The notes beneath the pieces were generated by a model. That model was not told where the DNA came from. It was given only the letters and a program-made list of their open reading frames with translations, and made no database searches. Positions 9,717-40,865 of a DNA stretch of 50,158 bases are shown here, piece by piece (positions within the stretch are counted from its first letter, which is position 1; each line of letters starts with the position of its first letter). The stretch is from the sequence record OP455115. One strand, 5' to 3'. The DNA is from Escherichia phage LHE71. The translations under genes were made by a program, and so were the position numbers.

Positions 9717-10423
9717 ATGAAATTAATCTGGTCACTATTTGACGGTTCAGGTCTTGCTGGTCATGAGCTGGCAAAGCAAGGTCACAAGGTGATGTGCTTC
9801 AACTTTGACGGAGCCGATCACGGTGATTACGCAAAGTACAATGCCAGAGTCGAGCATCCGAACATTGAGTATGTGAACGTCTTCATTGATGAGAAGTTCG
9901 AACGTGATGCTATCGCTGGCGTGTACGGAAAGCCGGATTTTATTATGGCCTTCCCGCCGTGCACTGACCTGGCTGTTAGTGCCGCCGCCGCCTCTTTGCC
10001 AGCAAGCGTGAACGTGATCCGTTATTCCAGGAGAAGGCTGTTGCCACCGCAAGGATTGCTGCGAACATTGGCGAGGCGCTTGGTGTTACTTACATCATTG
10101 AGAATCCGGTGAGCGTCCTGTCGTCTGCGTGGAGAAAACCAAATCACTCCTTCAATCCCTGGGAGTATGGCGGCTATCTTCCCGAGAATGACGTGCATCC
10201 CTGGTTCCCGATGTATATTGCGCCGCGAGATGCTTACCCGAAGAAGACTTGTCTGTGGACCTCTGACGATTTTGTCATGCCAAAAAGGAAACCTGTAAGA
10301 CTGCCTGACGGGTACTCTGCACAGCAAAACAAGCTGGGCGGCAAGTCTGCCAAAACGAAGCTGATACGATCCCTGTCGCCGCGTGGATTTTTCAAAGCGA
10401 TCGCAAATAGCACTTTTTGTTAA
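9717..10423 (+). CDS. DNA (cytosine-5)-methyltransferase-like gene interrupted by a -1 frameshift at a GCC repeat
   Basis: N-terminal frame has motif I-like LFDGSGLAG and motif IV-like FPPCTDLAVS; downstream frame has RDPLF and IIENPV (motif V/VI-like); frames switch within 9980..9992. Confidence 0.4.
10408..10422. promoter_or_regulatory. Palindromic motif of promoter module
   Basis: TAGCACTTTTTGTTA, then 22 nt, then CATAAT (10445..10450) and leader TACCTCATCGAAACGAG. Confidence 0.5.
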
Positions 10424-15170: not shown

Positions 15171-15193
15171 AGGAGGCTAAGCCTCCTTTTTTT
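15171..15193. terminator. Bidirectional rho-independent terminator
   Basis: Stem AGGAGGC/GCCTCCT followed by TTTTTT; lies between convergent gene blocks. Confidence 0.6.
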
Positions 15194-15581
15194 CGTCCTT
15201 ACGAAGTGAAAAATAAACCAGCAATAGACCAATAAAAACGAGAATCCAGCCAACGATAGCGTCATACCAGTTTCCAGGCTTAGTCACAGTGATGCTTTCA
15301 GCGTTAACCGTGTTGGCCTTAATGGTTGACACCTCAATTGACTTCTTCACGGAAGAGTCAACCTTTCCTACATTGGACTTTTCAACTTTAACATCTCGCT
15401 TATCTTCGGATTTTGCGGTTACTCCTGCTAATTGCTTTGTGTTCTCCTCTCCAATCTGTGCTGTAACTTCAGGTTTAGATCCGATTAAACCGCTCAGGGC
15501 AGATGCCGTCGAGCAACCGGATAGAGAAATAACACCAACAGCCACTACAATAGCAACGCACGTTTTCTTCAGTCTCATCAT
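15177..15581 (-). CDS. Unimolecular spanin (T1 gp11-like)
   Basis: Lipoprotein signal with lipobox LSGC at N-terminus, C-terminal TM helix, directly downstream of endolysin. Confidence 0.6.
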
Positions 15582-36134: not shown

Positions 36135-39008
36135 TTAACCTCCTGTTTTTTCCTGAATGTAATTATAAACCTCGCCGCCCTGCGAACAAGACTCACGAAT
36201 CATTTTTTTGAACATCATTTCTACACCCTGAGAAATTCCTCTCGGATCTGAACCATTGTCAACTTTAACCTCCATGCCCCTAACGTCAACGACCGTTCCA
36301 CCTGCTGATTGGTTTACTGCCTTCGGTGCTGATTTAGATGCGTTAAATCCAGAGGTTGCAACACTACCCGCAGCGGCAGCAAGCGATGTAACGGCGACAC
36401 CTGAAGATAAAGACCTAAAACCATAGGCGACAGGCGTAGGAGTTGCCTGTGATGCCGCAGAAGCACCAGACGAAGCTCCTCCAGCAAAACTCCATGTTTT
36501 ACCACCCATCATGCCCGAGATCGTATTGAAGATTACCATCTGAGCAATCATCTTTATAATCATGCCGATGATATTTTTAGCAAAGTCAGCAAAGTTTGCT
36601 TTCCCGGTAGTTAGGAATTGAACCATCATGTCAGTCATACCGTTTAGAGCACTTGACGCGATCTCGTTAACATTGCCGTACATATCCATTGCCGCATCAC
36701 CGTAATCAGCAAAAGCACTTTCAGCACCAGCTAACCAGTCAGCACGTTTGGCATCTTCCGCAGCGTAGTAATCATTTTGCGCCTTAATCATGTTCTGGAG
36801 TTTTTCGTCTCCTTCACCACCGCCAGCGTTGATATAATCAGTGGTTATTTTAGCCAGTTCCGCTTGTCGTTCCATTTCGCGAGTGCTAAGACCGCGTGAC
36901 GCGTTAAGCTGTTCTGTCGCCGCCGTCATCTCATTGACAAACTTCAGAGATTTATCGGTAAGAGCATTCAACTGTTGCTGCTTAACAATCTGATCGCCAA
37001 TCTCAGCCTTCTGTTTTGCAAGCTCTAAAACTTTCTCCTGGTTTGCAAGTAGTGCTTTTTCTTCCGTAGACAACTGACGCTTAGAACTGGCTTCACGAAG
37101 AACAGCAATCGTAGCCTCGGTAGTAAACAGTGCCTTTCTCTGTGCGGAAAGTTTTTGCCCGATCTCCTTGTGTTCCTGCAATACCTTAAGTTGAGCCTTG
37201 AGTGAGATTAACTCCTTGTCGAATTGCTCTGTCGGTGAGCGTACAATTTTCGACTGCTTATTTCGTTCTCGGTTTCGCTTATCGATCTCTTCTGCTTCTT
37301 TCCTTATTGCTTCCTTAGTTTCCTCGCTGTACTGCTTTTCAAGAGTGCGACGCTGCTTCATCGCTTCAACGTATCCCATCTCGCCTTTTTCTACGCGAGC
37401 GTTAATAGCATCAAGCTCGGATGCCAACTGGTCGTAGTTGTCGCGAGAACTTTTTACGATGTTCTCCTGCTCCTTCAGCACATCAGCACCAAAATCACTC
37501 ATGCCAGGCAGGGATTGCGTAGCCTTGATTGCAGAGGCGATAAAGTTTGAGATGTACTCATCACCTTTCGCAAGAATCATTTTTACCTGAATCACTGTAC
37601 CCTGTACCACATCAATAATCAGGTTAAGCGCCCCGAGAGTATGATCCCCTACCCATCCCCAAGCGTCAGAAGACCACTGCTTAATATCGTTCCACATTTT
37701 TTCAAGAGGTGTGGCATTGTCTGCGATCGACTTCATTCGCTTCTCCATAACTTCGGCGAATAATTTCGTTGCTTCAGACACTGCTTCCGTTTCACCCTTA
37801 GTACGGCTTAGCGTATCGACATATGTCAGTTGTCCTTTTTCTAAAAAGTTGTATTGCTCGTTAAGTTTAGCCAGACCCTTTACAGGATCGCTTGCGATTT
37901 TATCGAACTCAGCGATGATTTTACTTGCCGATTTTCCGGTTGCTGTCGACCACTCAGCGGTAGCTTTTGTGATGTTCTGAATCTGCTCTCGCGTATATTT
38001 CCCCGTACTGGCAAGTTCAGTAACAATCTCACGAATGCTTGAAATTGTTGAGTTGCTCGTCTGAGCTACCTTTTTAGCAACAGAATCAAGGTCTTCAGCC
38101 GTGACTCCTGCATAACCTCCAGTCTCAACAAGAGCCTTCTGCATATCAGTTATTGACTTGTAAGAGTCATAACCAGCTTTCGCCAGAAGACCTAACGAAC
38201 CAACAAGAACGCCAACCCCTGCCGTGACCGGATTAATATAGCTAAGCAGTACTTTAAACGTATTACCGACACCGCCGAACGAGTCCTTGATCTGACCACC
38301 TTGCTGGATGGCAACCAGCCATACAGGCATGCCGGAGGCGAGAGATGTTACGACGTCAGTAATCTGTGCCGGAAGCATTCTCATAGCCTGCTTATATTCC
38401 CCAGCGCTGATACCTGCCGCATTCATTGCTCGCCCCTGCTCTTTCAGTTTTGCGATTAGTGGCGCTGCTTCATTTGATAGTCCAAGCTGAGCCGCTTTCA
38501 GTTCCATTAACTCTGCGTGAGTTTTTCCAATAGCGTTAACCTGACTGTTCAGGGAATCCATGAACGCTTTGCTTTTCGCTGCCGCCTGCTCTTTTGCTTT
38601 CGCCTCCTGTAATGCTGCTTGGCCTTCTTCCGTAAGCATGGCACGGCTGCGAGCAAGTTTTGCGTTTTGCAGATCCAGCATTTCACCTAAACGGAAAAAC
38701 GTGTCATCTGGAACGACGCCTTGCTGCCAGAGTTTATCAAGCTGCTGGGAAGCAACTTTTAACCTCTCCATTTTTGCAACTGTAGGATCGATTGCCTTCT
38801 CTACAGCCTCGTACTCTTTTCGCTGGCGTTTAAGTTGTTCAGCGTGTTCTTTAGCCTTCTGTTTTGCAACCTCGGCCTCATTGATTAAAGACCCCATAGA
38901 GTCAGCGGCTTGGTCGTTAGCTTTTGAAAACTCTTTCAATGACTTGACGGCGCGCTGCACTGTCGACACATCAACGTCAAGCGATAGACCTGCTACCTTA
39001 TCAACCAT
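36135..39008 (-). CDS. Tail tape measure protein
   Basis: About 957 aa, helical and coiled-coil rich; start set at MVDKVAGL with SD AGGGGG. Confidence 0.85.
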
Positions 39009-39024
39009 ATAACCCCCTATATAC

Positions 39025-39045
39025 AAAAAAACCGCCAAACGGCGG
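39025..39045 (-). terminator. Intra-operon terminator/attenuator hairpin
   Basis: Stem CCGCC/GGCGG with 7-T run on the minus strand immediately upstream of the tape measure SD. Confidence 0.45.
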
Positions 39046-39046
39046 C

Positions 39047-39681
39047 TTAGTTATTCTGCTTAGCAATCATTTCAAGCGCTTTAGCTTCCATGATCCTAAC
39101 GTCCTGCAATGCCAGTTCTTCATCTTCTATTTTATAGATTTTAAACAACATAGGCAAAACATTATAATCAAGACCGTAAGCGCCAGCGCCTGAACTTCTC
39201 CACTGAGTGAGCATTGATGTAAAAACATTCCAAGCCTTCACCATTTCAGCGTCGCCAATTATCGTTTCCGGTTCCTCGTCTTCATAGTCAGAAAGACTTA
39301 AACCAACCGATCGCAATTGTTCCTCTGTTGGCGGCTTCTGATATAACAGATAGACCGCCCTTTTTAGTTTTTTGCGCGGTGTCCTGCGAGAGCCTTGATG
39401 TAAGTCGCTGTCAGGTTGTACGCTGCTGAAGGATAATACTGAACCAGTTTTCGCGCATTTTCTTCGTTAAATTCTTCTTCTAGGTTCCACCCTGAAGCGA
39501 TCTTGGTAATGAACTCGCTGTCGTTCATTTCTCCCTGGTTAGCATACATATCCTGAACTTCTTTACTGGAAAGGTGGCGTACAGTGAAAATGATCGTTGC
39601 ATCTTCACCGTTAGGCATGGTGAAGGTAACTGGAAGTTTGAAGTCTGGAAGTTGACCAAGAACGAAATTAAATTTAGCCAT
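39047..39681 (-). CDS. Tail assembly chaperone GT-like fusion made by programmed -1 frameshift
   Basis: Slippery heptamer A AAA AAC at the last codons of the 39364..39681 ORF; -1 frame continues into the 39047..39316 ORF. Confidence 0.5.
39364..39681 (-). CDS. Tail assembly chaperone G-like
   Basis: 105 aa between major tail and tape measure genes; ends at the slippery site. Confidence 0.6.
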   Translation of the reverse strand: MAKFNFVLGQLPDFKLPVTFTMPNGEDATIIFTVRHLSSKEVQDMYANQGEMNDSEFITKIASGWNLEEEFNEENARKLVQYYPSAAYNLTATYIKALAGHRAKN

Positions 39682-39703
39682 GATATTTCTCCTGATTGGT
39701 TAA

Positions 39704-39718
39704 TGGCACTTTTTGTTA
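39704..39718. promoter_or_regulatory. Palindromic motif instance upstream of the chaperone gene
   Basis: TGGCACTTTTTGTTA about 20 nt upstream of the SD. Confidence 0.4.
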
Positions 39719-39754
39719 AAAGATAATAGTGCAAAGTTGATACGATGATTTTAC

Positions 39755-39783
39755 AGAAATGAAGAAGGGGGCGCAAGCCCCCC
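39755..39783 (-). terminator. Candidate terminator/attenuator after major tail gene
   Basis: GC stem GGGGG/CCCCC followed by a T-rich tract on the minus strand. Confidence 0.4.
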
Positions 39784-39795
39784 TGTGGATATGAT

Positions 39796-40464
39796 TTAGG
39801 CACCAGGTGATGCCAGAGAGGATGAGATGAAAGTGAAATCACCCTTCAGGGATACGGCGAGTTGTACCGTTTCCATTTCGTTTACTTGCGTAGATGGAAT
39901 GTCGTTAAAAGACAAGATACCAGCCCACATGCGCATCTCGTTCGCTTTTGGAACATACATCCGAACCGCAGTTACCTGACCAGAAGAATCCAGCTTACGC
40001 AGAATAGGATAGATAGGGTTATCAAATTCGTGCGCAAAGGTGTACGTTAGCGAGATCGCAGATTTAAACGTCGGGATCTGCTGCTCTTTATCGTCGGACA
40101 AACACTGATAAGTGTAATACTGCTGCTCTCCACCGTCCTGACCAATCTCCTGCACGCAAGGGATCTCAGTCCAGCCAGTAACTTTTGCAAAGCTCATTGT
40201 ACCGCCAGCCGGGAAAACAAGAGTATCAGTAGTGTCAATTCCAGCAAGAGTAATACTTGTTTCCCGAGCGTCAGTAACAATTAGTACTCGACTAACCATC
40301 TTATTCCAAGTTGACTGAGTTACAATAACGTAATCACCTTTTGCTAAGTCGCCCTTAGATGCAACTGTAGCAACAGGATTTTTTGCGTTAGTGACAGCGG
40401 TTGCCTCGATCTCTACTCCTCGAGAGGTTTCCACGAAAATTTGCGCGCCATTTGGTAAGTGCAT
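39796..40464 (-). CDS. Major tail protein
   Basis: Start at MHLPNGAQIF with SD AAGGAG; position just upstream of the chaperone pair. Confidence 0.6.
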   Translation of the reverse strand: MHLPNGAQIFVETSRGVEIEATAVTNAKNPVATVASKGDLAKGDYVIVTQSTWNKMVSRVLIVTDARETSITLAGIDTTDTLVFPAGGTMSFAKVTGWTEIPCVQEIGQDGGEQQYYTYQCLSDDKEQQIPTFKSAISLTYTFAHEFDNPIYPILRKLDSSGQVTAVRMYVPKANEMRMWAGILSFNDIPSTQVNEMETVQLAVSLKGDFTFISSSLASPGA

Positions 40465-40466
40465 AA

Positions 40467-40865
40467 TTAAGTCTCCTTTGTGTCTACTCGTACCGTAAAG
40501 CGAACTGGAATCATCCATCCGCTTTCGTGTTTAACAATTTGATGCACGATTGCACCTTCGAAAATATAACCAACGTTAAGCATTTTACCATCTTTGAAAA
40601 AATCGGCAATCTCTTTTGCTTTCAATCTTGCCTCATCAACGCCGGAGCCTGGAGGGAACACTACGCCGATCTGAACGATTGCGATGTAAGATTTACACTT
40701 TCGGTCAATTGATAGATAAAGCGTATCCCCTTCAATGTAGTTGAACCTTAGCCACATGCCGCCATCTCTCGGCGGTGTAAAGTTCCTGTTTTCCATGTAG
40801 TGAGGAAAGTCTCTATACTTCGACAGAAAGGCGGCGCGCGCCGCCGCTGATAACTCATAGTGCAT
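40467..40865 (-). CDS. Tail terminator/completion protein candidate
   Basis: 132 aa, position before major tail gene. Confidence 0.45.
   Translation of the reverse strand: MHYELSAAARAAFLSKYRDFPHYMENRNFTPPRDGGMWLRFNYIEGDTLYLSIDRKCKSYIAIVQIGVVFPPGSGVDEARLKAKEIADFFKDGKMLNVGYIFEGAIVHQIVKHESGWMIPVRFTVRVDTKET

What the first reader, a model, noticed from the sequence alone, without database searches (positions are those of the whole stretch)
39364..39375. Programmed -1 frameshift joining the tail assembly chaperone ORFs
The 39364..39681 ORF ends with GCA AAA AAC TAA. The heptamer A AAA AAC is a canonical slippery site. After a -1 slip the frame continues without a stop for 90 codons ([32 protein letters not shown]...) through the annotated 39047..39316 ORF. 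Position between major tail protein and tape measure matches the lambda G/GT arrangement.
Basis: partly seen in the sequence, partly recalled or inferred. Interest (0 to 1): 0.45.

Follow-up and report, generated by a model that had tools for sequence, protein, structure and literature searches.

The report
Tail chaperone G/GT ribosomal frameshift site
This T1-like phage makes a long form of its tail assembly chaperone when a few ribosomes slip back one base at AAAAAAC, the last two codons of the short form; this is the ordinary, already described lambda G/GT arrangement.

Summary
The window is a Tunavirus (T1-like, Drexlerviridae). On the minus strand, a 105-codon chaperone ORF (39681..39364, Pfam Phage_TAC_4) lies between the major tail protein and tape measure genes. 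It ends GCA AAA AAC TAA, and the -1 frame then runs 106 codons (not 90) through a DUF1799 domain to 39047.

Comparative evidence is decisive:
- 77 of 82 distinct relatives (44-100% G identity, one at 29%) keep NNA_AAA_AAC plus a stop as the last G codons.
- The three synonymous positions of the heptamer never vary, while neighbouring ones are near saturation.
- Codon-phase variation switches from frame 0 to frame -1 exactly at the heptamer.
- The peptide LKRAVYL..., upstream of any start codon, is conserved.
- The TTG start at 39316 is missing in T1 and most genera.
- Relatives retrieved independently of the site keep A_AAA_AAC or G_GGA_AAC plus a stop. These include Dhillonvirus, a Serratia phage, and phages or prophages of GC-rich hosts.

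A hairpin 7 nt downstream is probably a clade-specific stimulator.

The frameshift is already noted for the T1-like phages Stevie, Skenny and U136B, although close relatives' records annotate two separate ORFs. I found no experimental proof for T1-like phages. Already known; low interest.

The parts
39796..40518 (-). Major tail (tube) protein gene. It lies upstream of the chaperone cassette. Homologues are annotated from the ATG at 40464.
   Evidence: PF08813 Phage_tail_3, E 1.2e-69; phrog_584 major tail protein. Annotated as major tail protein in Sfin-1, T1 and SA12KD.
39765..39784 (-). Terminator-like hairpin between the major tail protein gene and G.
   Evidence: Consensus scan. The equivalent site is annotated as a rho-independent terminator in T1 and SA12KD.
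39364..39681 (-). G-like tail assembly chaperone ORF: 105 aa, 11.9 kDa, ATG preceded by AGGAG. This is the product of standard decoding.
   Evidence: PF08748 Phage_TAC_4, E 5.5e-37, full length; phrog_569 and phrog_17368 positions 1-107.
39367..39373 (-). Slippery heptamer A_AAA_AAC, formed by the last base of GCA plus the last two sense codons of G.
   Evidence: Present in 77 of 82 distinct relatives, with zero entropy at all three synonymous positions. Also kept in Dhillonvirus, a Serratia phage, and Massilia and Janthinobacterium prophages; replaced by G_GGA_AAC in Pseudomonas and Ralstonia phages.
39364..39366 (-). G stop codon UAA, directly abutting the heptamer. It may be part of the signal.
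   Evidence: A stop (TAA or TGA) immediately follows the heptamer in every sequence that has the heptamer.
39330..39359 (-). Hairpin GGCGGU-CUAU-CUG-UUAUAU-CAG-AA-GCCGCC, 7 nt 3' of the heptamer. It is a probable clade-specific frameshift stimulator.
   Evidence: MFE -15.4 kcal/mol, z -3.2. It is the most stable 42-nt window in the whole G-T region of this phage, and in the top 5% in 35 of 53 distinct relatives. 78% of cells are paired, against 35-52% with slid partners, and there are few compensatory changes. The four-fold sites inside the stem are less variable than those outside. No consensus structure over all clades and no Rfam family.
39047..39367 (-). T-like segment in the -1 frame: 106 codons plus stop. 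It is read only after the slip. The predicted GT fusion is 211 aa, 24.1 kDa, encoded by complement(join(39047..39367,39367..39681)).
   Evidence: PF08809 DUF1799, E 1.7e-12. phrog_17368 positions 107-212 are colinear with G's 1-107. The peptide is conserved from codon 1. tblastn matches start at residue 1 in 1138 of 1154 phage records.
39314..39316 (-). TTG with AGAGGA upstream: the start of the 89-aa ORF annotated in close relatives. It is probably not the functional start.
   Evidence: Present only in a subset of relatives. T1 has TTA here, and most genera have no start codon before conserved Met42, which has no Shine-Dalgarno sequence. T1 gp39 is annotated only from codon 52.
39029..39048 (-). 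Terminator-like hairpin directly after the T stop codon, before the tape measure gene.
   Evidence: Annotated as a terminator in T1 and SA12KD.
36135..39008 (-). Tape measure protein gene, downstream of the cassette.
   Evidence: PF06791 TMP_2, E 1.2e-72; PF09718 Tape_meas_lam_C, E 6.6e-26; phrog_24.

Best explanation
This is a programmed -1 ribosomal frameshift of the lambda G/GT type.

Most ribosomes translate the 105-aa chaperone G and terminate at UAA (39366..39364). A small fraction slip back one base on A_AAA_AAC: tRNA-Lys moves from AAA to AAA, and tRNA-Asn from AAC to AAA. These ribosomes then read CUA and 105 further codons in the -1 frame, which yields a 211-aa GT fusion (...[23 protein letters not shown]...).

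By analogy with lambda, the G part of both proteins coats the tape measure protein, and the T part of the rare fusion recruits the major tail protein. The weak shiftiness of this heptamer in E. coli would then set a low GT:G ratio. A hairpin 7 nt downstream (39359..39330), and possibly the abutting stop codon, probably tune the efficiency.

Shown here: the anatomy, family membership, nucleotide-level selection on the heptamer, protein-level selection on the -1 frame from its first codon, and the lack of a conserved own start. Inferred: the slip itself, its efficiency, the roles of the hairpin and the stop codon, and the functions of G and T.
For: - Anatomy.
- G is PF08748, T is PF08809, and the flanking genes are the major tail protein and tape measure protein.
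- phrog_17368 spans G and T colinearly.
- 77 of 82 distinct relatives have NNA_AAA_AAC plus a stop as the last codons of G, followed by a 104-121-codon -1 frame (104-110 in all but L089).
- Entropy is 0 at heptamer positions -7, -4 and -1. The mean for frame-0 third positions upstream is 1.67 bits. Downstream, the variable phase is that of the -1 frame: 0.54/0.42/1.23 bits for codon positions 1/2/3.
- LKRAV...PTD.EL is conserved upstream of any start codon. The TTG is absent in T1 and most genera.
- Retrieval through T-domain motifs only, independent of the site, gave: A_AAA_AAC plus stop in Dhillonvirus, Serratia phage Smarc2 (annotated join), and Massilia and Janthinobacterium prophages with 59-64% GC; and G_GGA_AAC plus stop in Pseudomonas and Ralstonia phages. 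The X_XX part thus co-varies as tandem slippage predicts.
- Hairpin data.
- The frameshift is stated for T1-like Stevie (PMC4319613), Skenny (PMC6763657; join in GenBank) and U136B (PMC8104045).
Against: - I found no experimental detection of a GT fusion in any T1-like phage.
- A TTG with an AGAGGA Shine-Dalgarno-like motif at 39316 could allow independent initiation in this particular phage.
- The hairpin is not conserved in Rtp-like, Webervirus and some other clades. Compensatory changes are few and RNAalifold finds no family-wide structure.
- A Webervirus subgroup (Skenny, VAC4) has GCA AAA GTT TAA, without a canonical heptamer.
- One of the two search patterns contained the residues K-N. 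This fixes the amino acids but not the codons.
- The sequences are phylogenetically related, so counts are not independent events.
Confidence: 0.9

Rival explanations
1. Two independent genes. The T-like ORF is translated on its own from TTG 39316 (AGAGGA five bases upstream) as an 89-aa protein, as annotated in GenBank records of close relatives. The heptamer would then be incidental.
For: A start codon and a Shine-Dalgarno-like motif are present in the window. Sfin-1, SA12KD and others annotate two separate CDS.
Against: - The TTG is TTA in T1 and is absent in most genera. There is no conserved start before Met42, and that has no Shine-Dalgarno sequence.
- In several genomes no T ORF could be called at all (haarsle, herni, mar001J1, RCIP0096).
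- The 17 codons upstream of the TTG are the best conserved part of the -1 frame and vary at -1-frame third positions.
- The heptamer is invariant at synonymous sites.
Confidence: 0.05
2. Termination-coupled single-tRNA slippage ('shifty stop'). Peptidyl-tRNA-Asn on AAC slips -1 while the A site holds the slowly decoded UAA. This gives the same GT protein, but the ratio is set by competition with release factor rather than by tandem slippage during translocation.
For: The stop codon abuts the heptamer in every sequence that has the heptamer, across phage families and host GC contents. Stimulation of slippage by adjacent stop codons in E. coli is established knowledge (Weiss et al. 1987, recalled from memory and not checked here).
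Against: - The X_XX part is also invariant. It changes only in a coordinated way (A_AAA to G_GGA), which is needed for P-site re-pairing in tandem slippage but not for a tRNA-Asn-only slip.
- tRNA-Asn re-pairs poorly on AAA.
- The Webervirus variant keeps A_AAA but not AAC.
Confidence: 0.15
3. Transcriptional slippage. RNA polymerase adds one A in the A6 run, so a subset of mRNAs encodes an in-frame G-T fusion (...AKK-LKRA...).
For: A homopolymeric A6 run is present. Inserting one A gives the same downstream frame.
Against: - Six A is shorter than the runs of about 8-9 or more known to give useful slippage in bacteria (established knowledge; PMC5009743 treats these cases).
- The run is never longer than 6 in 77 sequences, and the following C is invariant.
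- Pseudomonas and Ralstonia relatives use GGGAAAC, which has no long homopolymer but is a valid ribosomal heptamer.
Confidence: 0.03

Closest known systems
Phage lambda G/GT tail assembly chaperone frameshift (Levin, Hendrix & Casjens 1993; Xu, Hendrix & Duda 2004, 2013, 2014, as summarised in PMC5009743)
   Same: Gene order is major tail protein, then G, then T in the -1 frame, then tape measure. The slippery heptamer is near the end of G. The expected level is low. Neither product is expected in virions. The tape measure protein shares the lambda-type Pfam domains TMP_2 and Tape_meas_lam_C.
   Different: - No detectable sequence similarity of G or T to lambda gpG or gpT (BLASTP and hhalign), and the Pfam families differ (PF08748 and PF08809).
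- The heptamer is A_AAA_AAC, not G_GGA_AAG.
- The heptamer is the very end of G, directly followed by the stop, whereas in lambda G continues for a few codons. The annotated T ORF starts at 10115 and the last base of G is 10133.
- The cassette is bracketed by terminator-like hairpins.
Annotated tape measure chaperone frameshifts of T1-like phages Stevie, Skenny and U136B (PMC4319613, PMC6763657, PMC8104045), and Serratia phage Smarc2 (GenBank join)
   Same: Same protein families and gene order. Stevie is probably locus L052 (matched only by the 49,816-bp contig length, not verified), and Smarc2 is L101. Both carry the identical A_AAA_AAC plus stop site.
   Different: Those are statements in annotations and genome announcements, without experiments. 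Skenny itself has a non-canonical site, GCA AAA GTT TAA. Records of the window's closest relatives (Sfin-1, phi2457T, SA12KD, T1) do not annotate the join.
IS1 insA-insB' frameshift at A_AAA_AAC in E. coli (Sekine & Ohtsubo; recalled from memory, not checked here); haloarchaeal virus HCTV-2 g-t site A_AAA_AAC (PMC5009743)
   Same: The same heptamer is used for low-level -1 frameshifting. HCTV-2 uses it in the same G-T context.
   Different: IS1 fuses a regulator to a transposase. HCTV-2 infects archaea. The protein families are unrelated.
E. coli dnaX frameshift (A_AAA_AAG, upstream Shine-Dalgarno-like element, downstream hairpin)
   Same: An A-rich heptamer decoded by the slippery tRNA-Lys, and a downstream hairpin at a similar spacing.
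   Different: - AAC instead of AAG in the A site, which is far less shifty in E. coli.
- An upstream AGGA lies 8 nt before the heptamer in the window, but it sits in Ala-Gly codons whose third positions vary freely (about 2 bits), so no conserved upstream Shine-Dalgarno element.
- dnaX efficiency is about 50% (from memory), whereas only a few percent is expected here.

Membership tests
Lambda-type G/GT programmed -1 frameshift in tail assembly chaperone genes | Two reading frames located between the major tail protein gene and the tape measure gene | tested here: met
   PF08813 upstream, PF06791 and PF09718 downstream; ORF map.
Lambda-type G/GT programmed -1 frameshift in tail assembly chaperone genes | The downstream frame is -1 relative to the upstream ORF and overlaps its end | tested here: met
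   The -1 frame is open 33 codons upstream and 106 codons downstream of the site; the +1 frame closes after 25 codons.
Lambda-type G/GT programmed -1 frameshift in tail assembly chaperone genes | X_XXY_YYZ slippery heptamer in the 0-frame register inside the overlap | tested here: met
   A_AAA_AAC at 39373..39367. It is the only in-frame heptamer in the overlap.
Lambda-type G/GT programmed -1 frameshift in tail assembly chaperone genes | The site and arrangement are conserved among relatives beyond what the proteins require | tested here: met
   77 of 82 distinct sequences. Zero entropy at the three synonymous sites against 1.4-2.0 bits at neighbouring ones. The phase of variation switches at the site. 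The site is kept against codon bias in prophages with 59-64% GC.
Lambda-type G/GT programmed -1 frameshift in tail assembly chaperone genes | The downstream segment has no translation start of its own | tested here: inconclusive
   The window has a TTG with AGAGGA at 39316. It is not conserved: absent in T1 and most genera, with no Shine-Dalgarno sequence at the conserved Met42.
Lambda-type G/GT programmed -1 frameshift in tail assembly chaperone genes | A GT fusion protein is made at a low percentage of G and is required for tail assembly | not testable with these tools
   I found no experimental report for T1-like phages.
Lambda-type G/GT programmed -1 frameshift in tail assembly chaperone genes | G binds the tape measure protein; the T domain binds the major tail protein | not testable with these tools
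   Inferred from lambda (PMC5009743).
Pfam Phage_TAC_4 (PF08748) and DUF1799 (PF08809) | Score above the curated gathering threshold over the full domain | tested here: met
   127.2 bits against a cut-off of 21.1, covering positions 1-105 of the 105-aa protein (model positions 1-124 of 124). 47.8 bits against a cut-off of 26.
Lambda gpG / gpT sequence families | Detectable sequence or profile similarity to lambda gpG and gpT | tested here: not met
   BLASTP E 2.6 and 0.30; hhalign probability 0.2% and 0.9%; no Pfam hit to the lambda families. It works like lambda G/GT but is not a sequence-family member.
dnaX-type stimulated -1 frameshift | Conserved Shine-Dalgarno-like element 10-14 nt upstream of the heptamer | tested here: not met
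   The upstream AGGA in the window lies in Ala-Gly codons whose third positions are free (entropy about 2 bits at -19 and -16).
dnaX-type stimulated -1 frameshift | Conserved 3' stem-loop 5-9 nt after the heptamer | tested here: inconclusive
   Strong in the window and in 35 of 53 distinct relatives. Different hairpins occupy the same place in Dhillonvirus, Serratia and Janthinobacterium relatives. Absent in Rtp-like and Webervirus clades, with little covariation.

The most novel reading that the evidence does not exclude
The signal may be the 10-nt unit X_XXA_AAC_UAA/UGA rather than the heptamer alone. The stop codon abuts the heptamer in every sequence that has the heptamer, from T1-like phages to prophages and phages of beta- and gamma-proteobacteria. 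The shift could therefore be coupled to termination. The G:GT ratio, and hence tail assembly, would then depend on release-factor activity in the host, which differs from the lambda paradigm.
Probability: 0.2. Interest if true: 0.4.

Novelty: already known. Interest (0 to 1): 0.13.

Why it matters
Practically, it corrects annotation. Records of the closest relatives (T1, Sfin-1, phi2457T, SA12KD and many others) list two small 'hypothetical' or mislabelled 'tape measure' ORFs, or drop or truncate the second one. The real products are most likely a 105-aa G and a 211-aa GT encoded by complement(join(39047..39367,39367..39681)).

Biologically it adds nothing unexpected. It is one more instance of the near-universal chaperone frameshift of long-tailed phages. 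Two details are mildly interesting: how deeply the exact motif A_AAA_AAC plus stop is conserved in the PF08748/PF08809 family, even in GC-rich hosts, and the coordinated replacement by G_GGA_AAC.

Tried and rejected
- Own-start hypothesis for T: rejected as the general mechanism, because the TTG is not conserved.
- Transcriptional slippage: rejected on run length, the invariant C and the GGGAAAC variants.
- Family-wide RNA structure: RNAalifold on 49 sequences gave no consensus. The hairpin is therefore treated as clade-specific.
- Rfam scan of 39000..39800: only a chance-level sRNA hit.
- NCBIfam: no family for G or T.
- PDB sequence search: no solved relative of G or T.
- Similarity to lambda G or T: none.
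- The search for homologous proteins with the conceptual 211-aa fusion returned only two T-frame ORF products and no natural in-frame fusion, so it was uninformative.
- I did not run structure prediction. Without an admissible deep alignment it would have been poor, and the Pfam assignment already settles the family.
- Xu et al. 2004 and 2013 are not held in the library, so I could not check whether T1 is in their table.
- Upstream Shine-Dalgarno-like stimulator: not supported.

Full report
**What is there**

The window is a T1-like phage. The 1-kb region 38900..39900 is 98% identical to Shigella phages phi2457T and Sfin-1 and to many Escherichia Tunavirus genomes.

The minus strand reads, in order:
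- the major tail protein gene (40518/40464..39796; PF08813, E 1.2e-69);
- a terminator-like hairpin (39784..39765);
- a 105-codon ORF (39681..39364), preceded by AGGAG, that matches Pfam Phage_TAC_4 over its full length (E 5.5e-37);
- a -1-frame segment with a DUF1799 domain that ends at 39047;
- a second terminator-like hairpin (39048..39029);
- the tape measure gene (39008..36135; TMP_2 and Tape_meas_lam_C).

The chaperone ORF ends GCA AAA AAC TAA. The heptamer A_AAA_AAC (39373..39367) is in the X_XXY_YYZ register, and the stop follows directly. After a -1 slip, 106 codons follow ([24 protein letters not shown]...KQNN). The predicted products are G (105 aa, 11.9 kDa) and GT (211 aa, 24.1 kDa).

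**Is it more than chance?**

In one sequence, only weakly. In-frame slippery heptamers occur about once per 330 codons of mechanical ORFs in this window, and the -1 overlap is 33 codons. This site is nevertheless the only one in the overlap, and it ranks first in the window for -1 extension beyond a stop.

The comparative evidence is what decides. I collected 89 related loci, comprising 82 distinct G-to-T sequences with G identity from 100% down to 44% (one outlier at 29%), from annotated phage records and IMG/VR.
- 77 of the 82 end G with NNA AAA AAC plus TAA or TGA, and continue in the -1 frame for 104-110 codons (121 in L089).
- The third positions of the three codons that make the heptamer (GCN/GTN, AAR, AAY) never vary (0 bits).
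- The third positions of the preceding six codons carry 1.4-2.0 bits, with all four bases present.
- Upstream of the site, variation has the phase of frame 0: 0.81/0.52/1.67 bits at codon positions 1/2/3.
- Downstream of the site, it has the phase of frame -1: 0.54/0.42/1.23 bits. The switch occurs at the heptamer.

One of the two peptide patterns used contained K-N. That fixes the residues but not the codons.

To remove even that bias, I retrieved relatives through T-domain motifs only. Results:
- Dhillonvirus mckay and SO-1 have GAA_AAA_AAC_TAA.
- Serratia phage Smarc2 has GTA_AAA_AAC_TGA and is annotated with a join.
- Massilia and Janthinobacterium prophages (59-64% GC) have GCA_AAA_AAC_TAA.
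- A Pseudomonas phage and a Ralstonia phage have G_GGA_AAC_TGA.

In each case these are the last two codons of G. The coordinated replacement of A_AAA by G_GGA is what tandem slippage predicts.

**Does T have its own start?**

The window has a TTG at 39316 with AGAGGA upstream, which is why close relatives annotate an 89-aa ORF. That codon is TTA in T1 and is absent in most genera. No start codon is conserved before Met42, and Met42 has no Shine-Dalgarno sequence.

T1's own annotation begins gp39 only at codon 52. Several genomes have no T ORF called at all. Yet the first 17 codans after the slip site (LKRAV.L....PTD.EL) are among the best conserved parts of the domain. In addition, tblastn matches in 1138 of 1154 phage records cover the query essentially from residue 1. 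phrog_17368 aligns G to its positions 1-107 and the -1 translation to 107-212, so fused proteins are already in the databases.

**Stimulators**

Seven nucleotides after the heptamer lies the hairpin GGCGGU...GCCGCC with an inner CUG/CAG helix (39359..39330).
- Its energy is -15.4 kcal/mol, z -3.2.
- It is the most stable 42-nt window of the whole G-T region in this phage, and falls in the top 5% in 35 of 53 distinct relatives.
- Across 49 sequences, 78% of cells are paired, against 35-52% with slid partners. Only a few changes are compensatory.
- The four-fold sites inside the stem vary less (0.7-0.8 bits) than those outside (1.4-1.8 bits).
- Rtp-like, Webervirus and some other clades lack it, and RNAalifold finds no family-wide structure.
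- Dhillonvirus, Serratia and Janthinobacterium relatives have different GC-rich hairpins at the same place.

I therefore treat the hairpin as a probable, lineage-specific stimulator. There is no conserved upstream Shine-Dalgarno-like element and no Rfam family.

The stop codon always abuts the heptamer. Whether it contributes to the shift is open.

**Mechanism and function**

The best explanation is a programmed -1 frameshift by tandem slippage of tRNA-Lys and tRNA-Asn, giving a minor GT fusion. In E. coli, A_AAA_AAC is much less shift-prone than A_AAA_AAG (PMC5009743). That suits a chaperone pair whose ratio in lambda is about 30:1.

The functions are inferred from lambda: G coats the tape measure protein, and T recruits the tail tube protein. 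The proteins show no sequence similarity to lambda gpG or gpT. This locus therefore works like lambda G/GT but belongs to different protein families (PF08748 and PF08809).

**Known or new?**

Already known. The class was defined for lambda and shown to be near-universal in long-tailed phages (reviewed in PMC5009743). For T1-like phages specifically, three genome announcements state it:
- Skenny: it states the frameshift, with a join in GenBank.
- U136B: it also states it.

I found no experimental demonstration for this phage group. Xu et al. 2004 is not held in the library, so I could not check whether T1 is in their table.

What this analysis adds is the strength and breadth of the comparative support, the correct product coordinates, and three details: the stop-abutting motif, the G_GGA_AAC variant and the clade-specific hairpin.

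**Exceptions seen**

- Four genome records have A5 instead of A6 at the site, which puts T in +1/-2 relative to G. These are probably homopolymer sequencing errors.
- A Webervirus subgroup (Skenny, VAC4) has GCA AAA GTT TAA, with only A_AAA_G.
- An Rtp-like contig has GCA AAG CCC TAA.
- A Nitrotoga prophage has GGG AAA ATC TAG.

None of these was followed further.

Noticed in passing
L045 (Shigella phage 2019SD1) ~1209; L087 ~1205; L084 ~1205; L011 (Salmonella virus STSR3) ~852: These four T1-like records have GTAAAAACTAA, with five A instead of six at the slip site. G then runs on into the wrong frame and T would need a +1/-2 shift. This is most likely a homopolymer sequencing error, but a real variant is not excluded.
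   Followed up: partly
L018 (Klebsiella phage Skenny) 1432-1446; L102 (Klebsiella phage VAC4) ~493-504: This Webervirus subgroup ends G with GCA AAA GTT TAA. It has no canonical X_XXY_YYZ heptamer, only A_AAA_G, yet the -1 peptide SLRRAVYL is conserved and Skenny is annotated with a join. Other Webervirus-like loci (L069, L077) keep AAAAAAC. This may be a non-canonical single-tRNA-Lys slip.
   Followed up: partly
L099 (Pseudomonas phage OQ658365) and L100 (Ralstonia phage YO021_1), position 495-504 of each locus: Distant relatives in GC-rich hosts use G_GGA_AAC followed directly by TGA, in place of A_AAA_AAC plus TAA. The slippery pattern and the abutting stop are both kept.
   Followed up: partly
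L092 (contig in a 'Fibrobacter' MAG) ~1195-1204; L093 (Nitrotoga sp. M5 prophage) ~1186-1195: These two relatives were found through the T domain and lack a canonical heptamer: GCA AAG CCC TAA (A_AAG only) and GGG AAA ATC TAG. L091 and L092 look like T1-like or Rtp-like phage contigs binned into unrelated MAGs.
   Followed up: no
window 39765..39784 and 39029..39048 (minus strand): The chaperone cassette is bracketed by two terminator-like hairpins, one after the major tail protein gene and one after T. Both are annotated as rho-independent terminators in T1 and SA12KD. This suggests stepwise attenuation from tube protein to chaperones to tape measure.
   Followed up: partly
one search hit list (e.g. 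MG065679 Campylobacter phage A13a, MG065643 E6): About 20 records labelled 'Campylobacter phage' carry T1-like G/T DNA (65-68% identity to the window). The host label looks doubtful for Drexlerviridae-like sequence.
   Followed up: no
window 15192 (minus strand), ORF 15581..15177: An in-frame A_AAA_AAG, the most shift-prone E. coli heptamer, lies two codons before the ORF's stop. The -1 frame extends only 11 codons, so it is probably incidental.
   Followed up: no
L098 (Sodalis phage SO-1) 819-1202; L097 (phage mckay) same span: Dhillonvirus relatives have a ~385-bp non-coding gap between T and the tape measure gene. In SO-1 it is annotated as a region of direct, inverted and palindromic repeats. 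The T1-like phages have only ~40 bp there.
   Followed up: no
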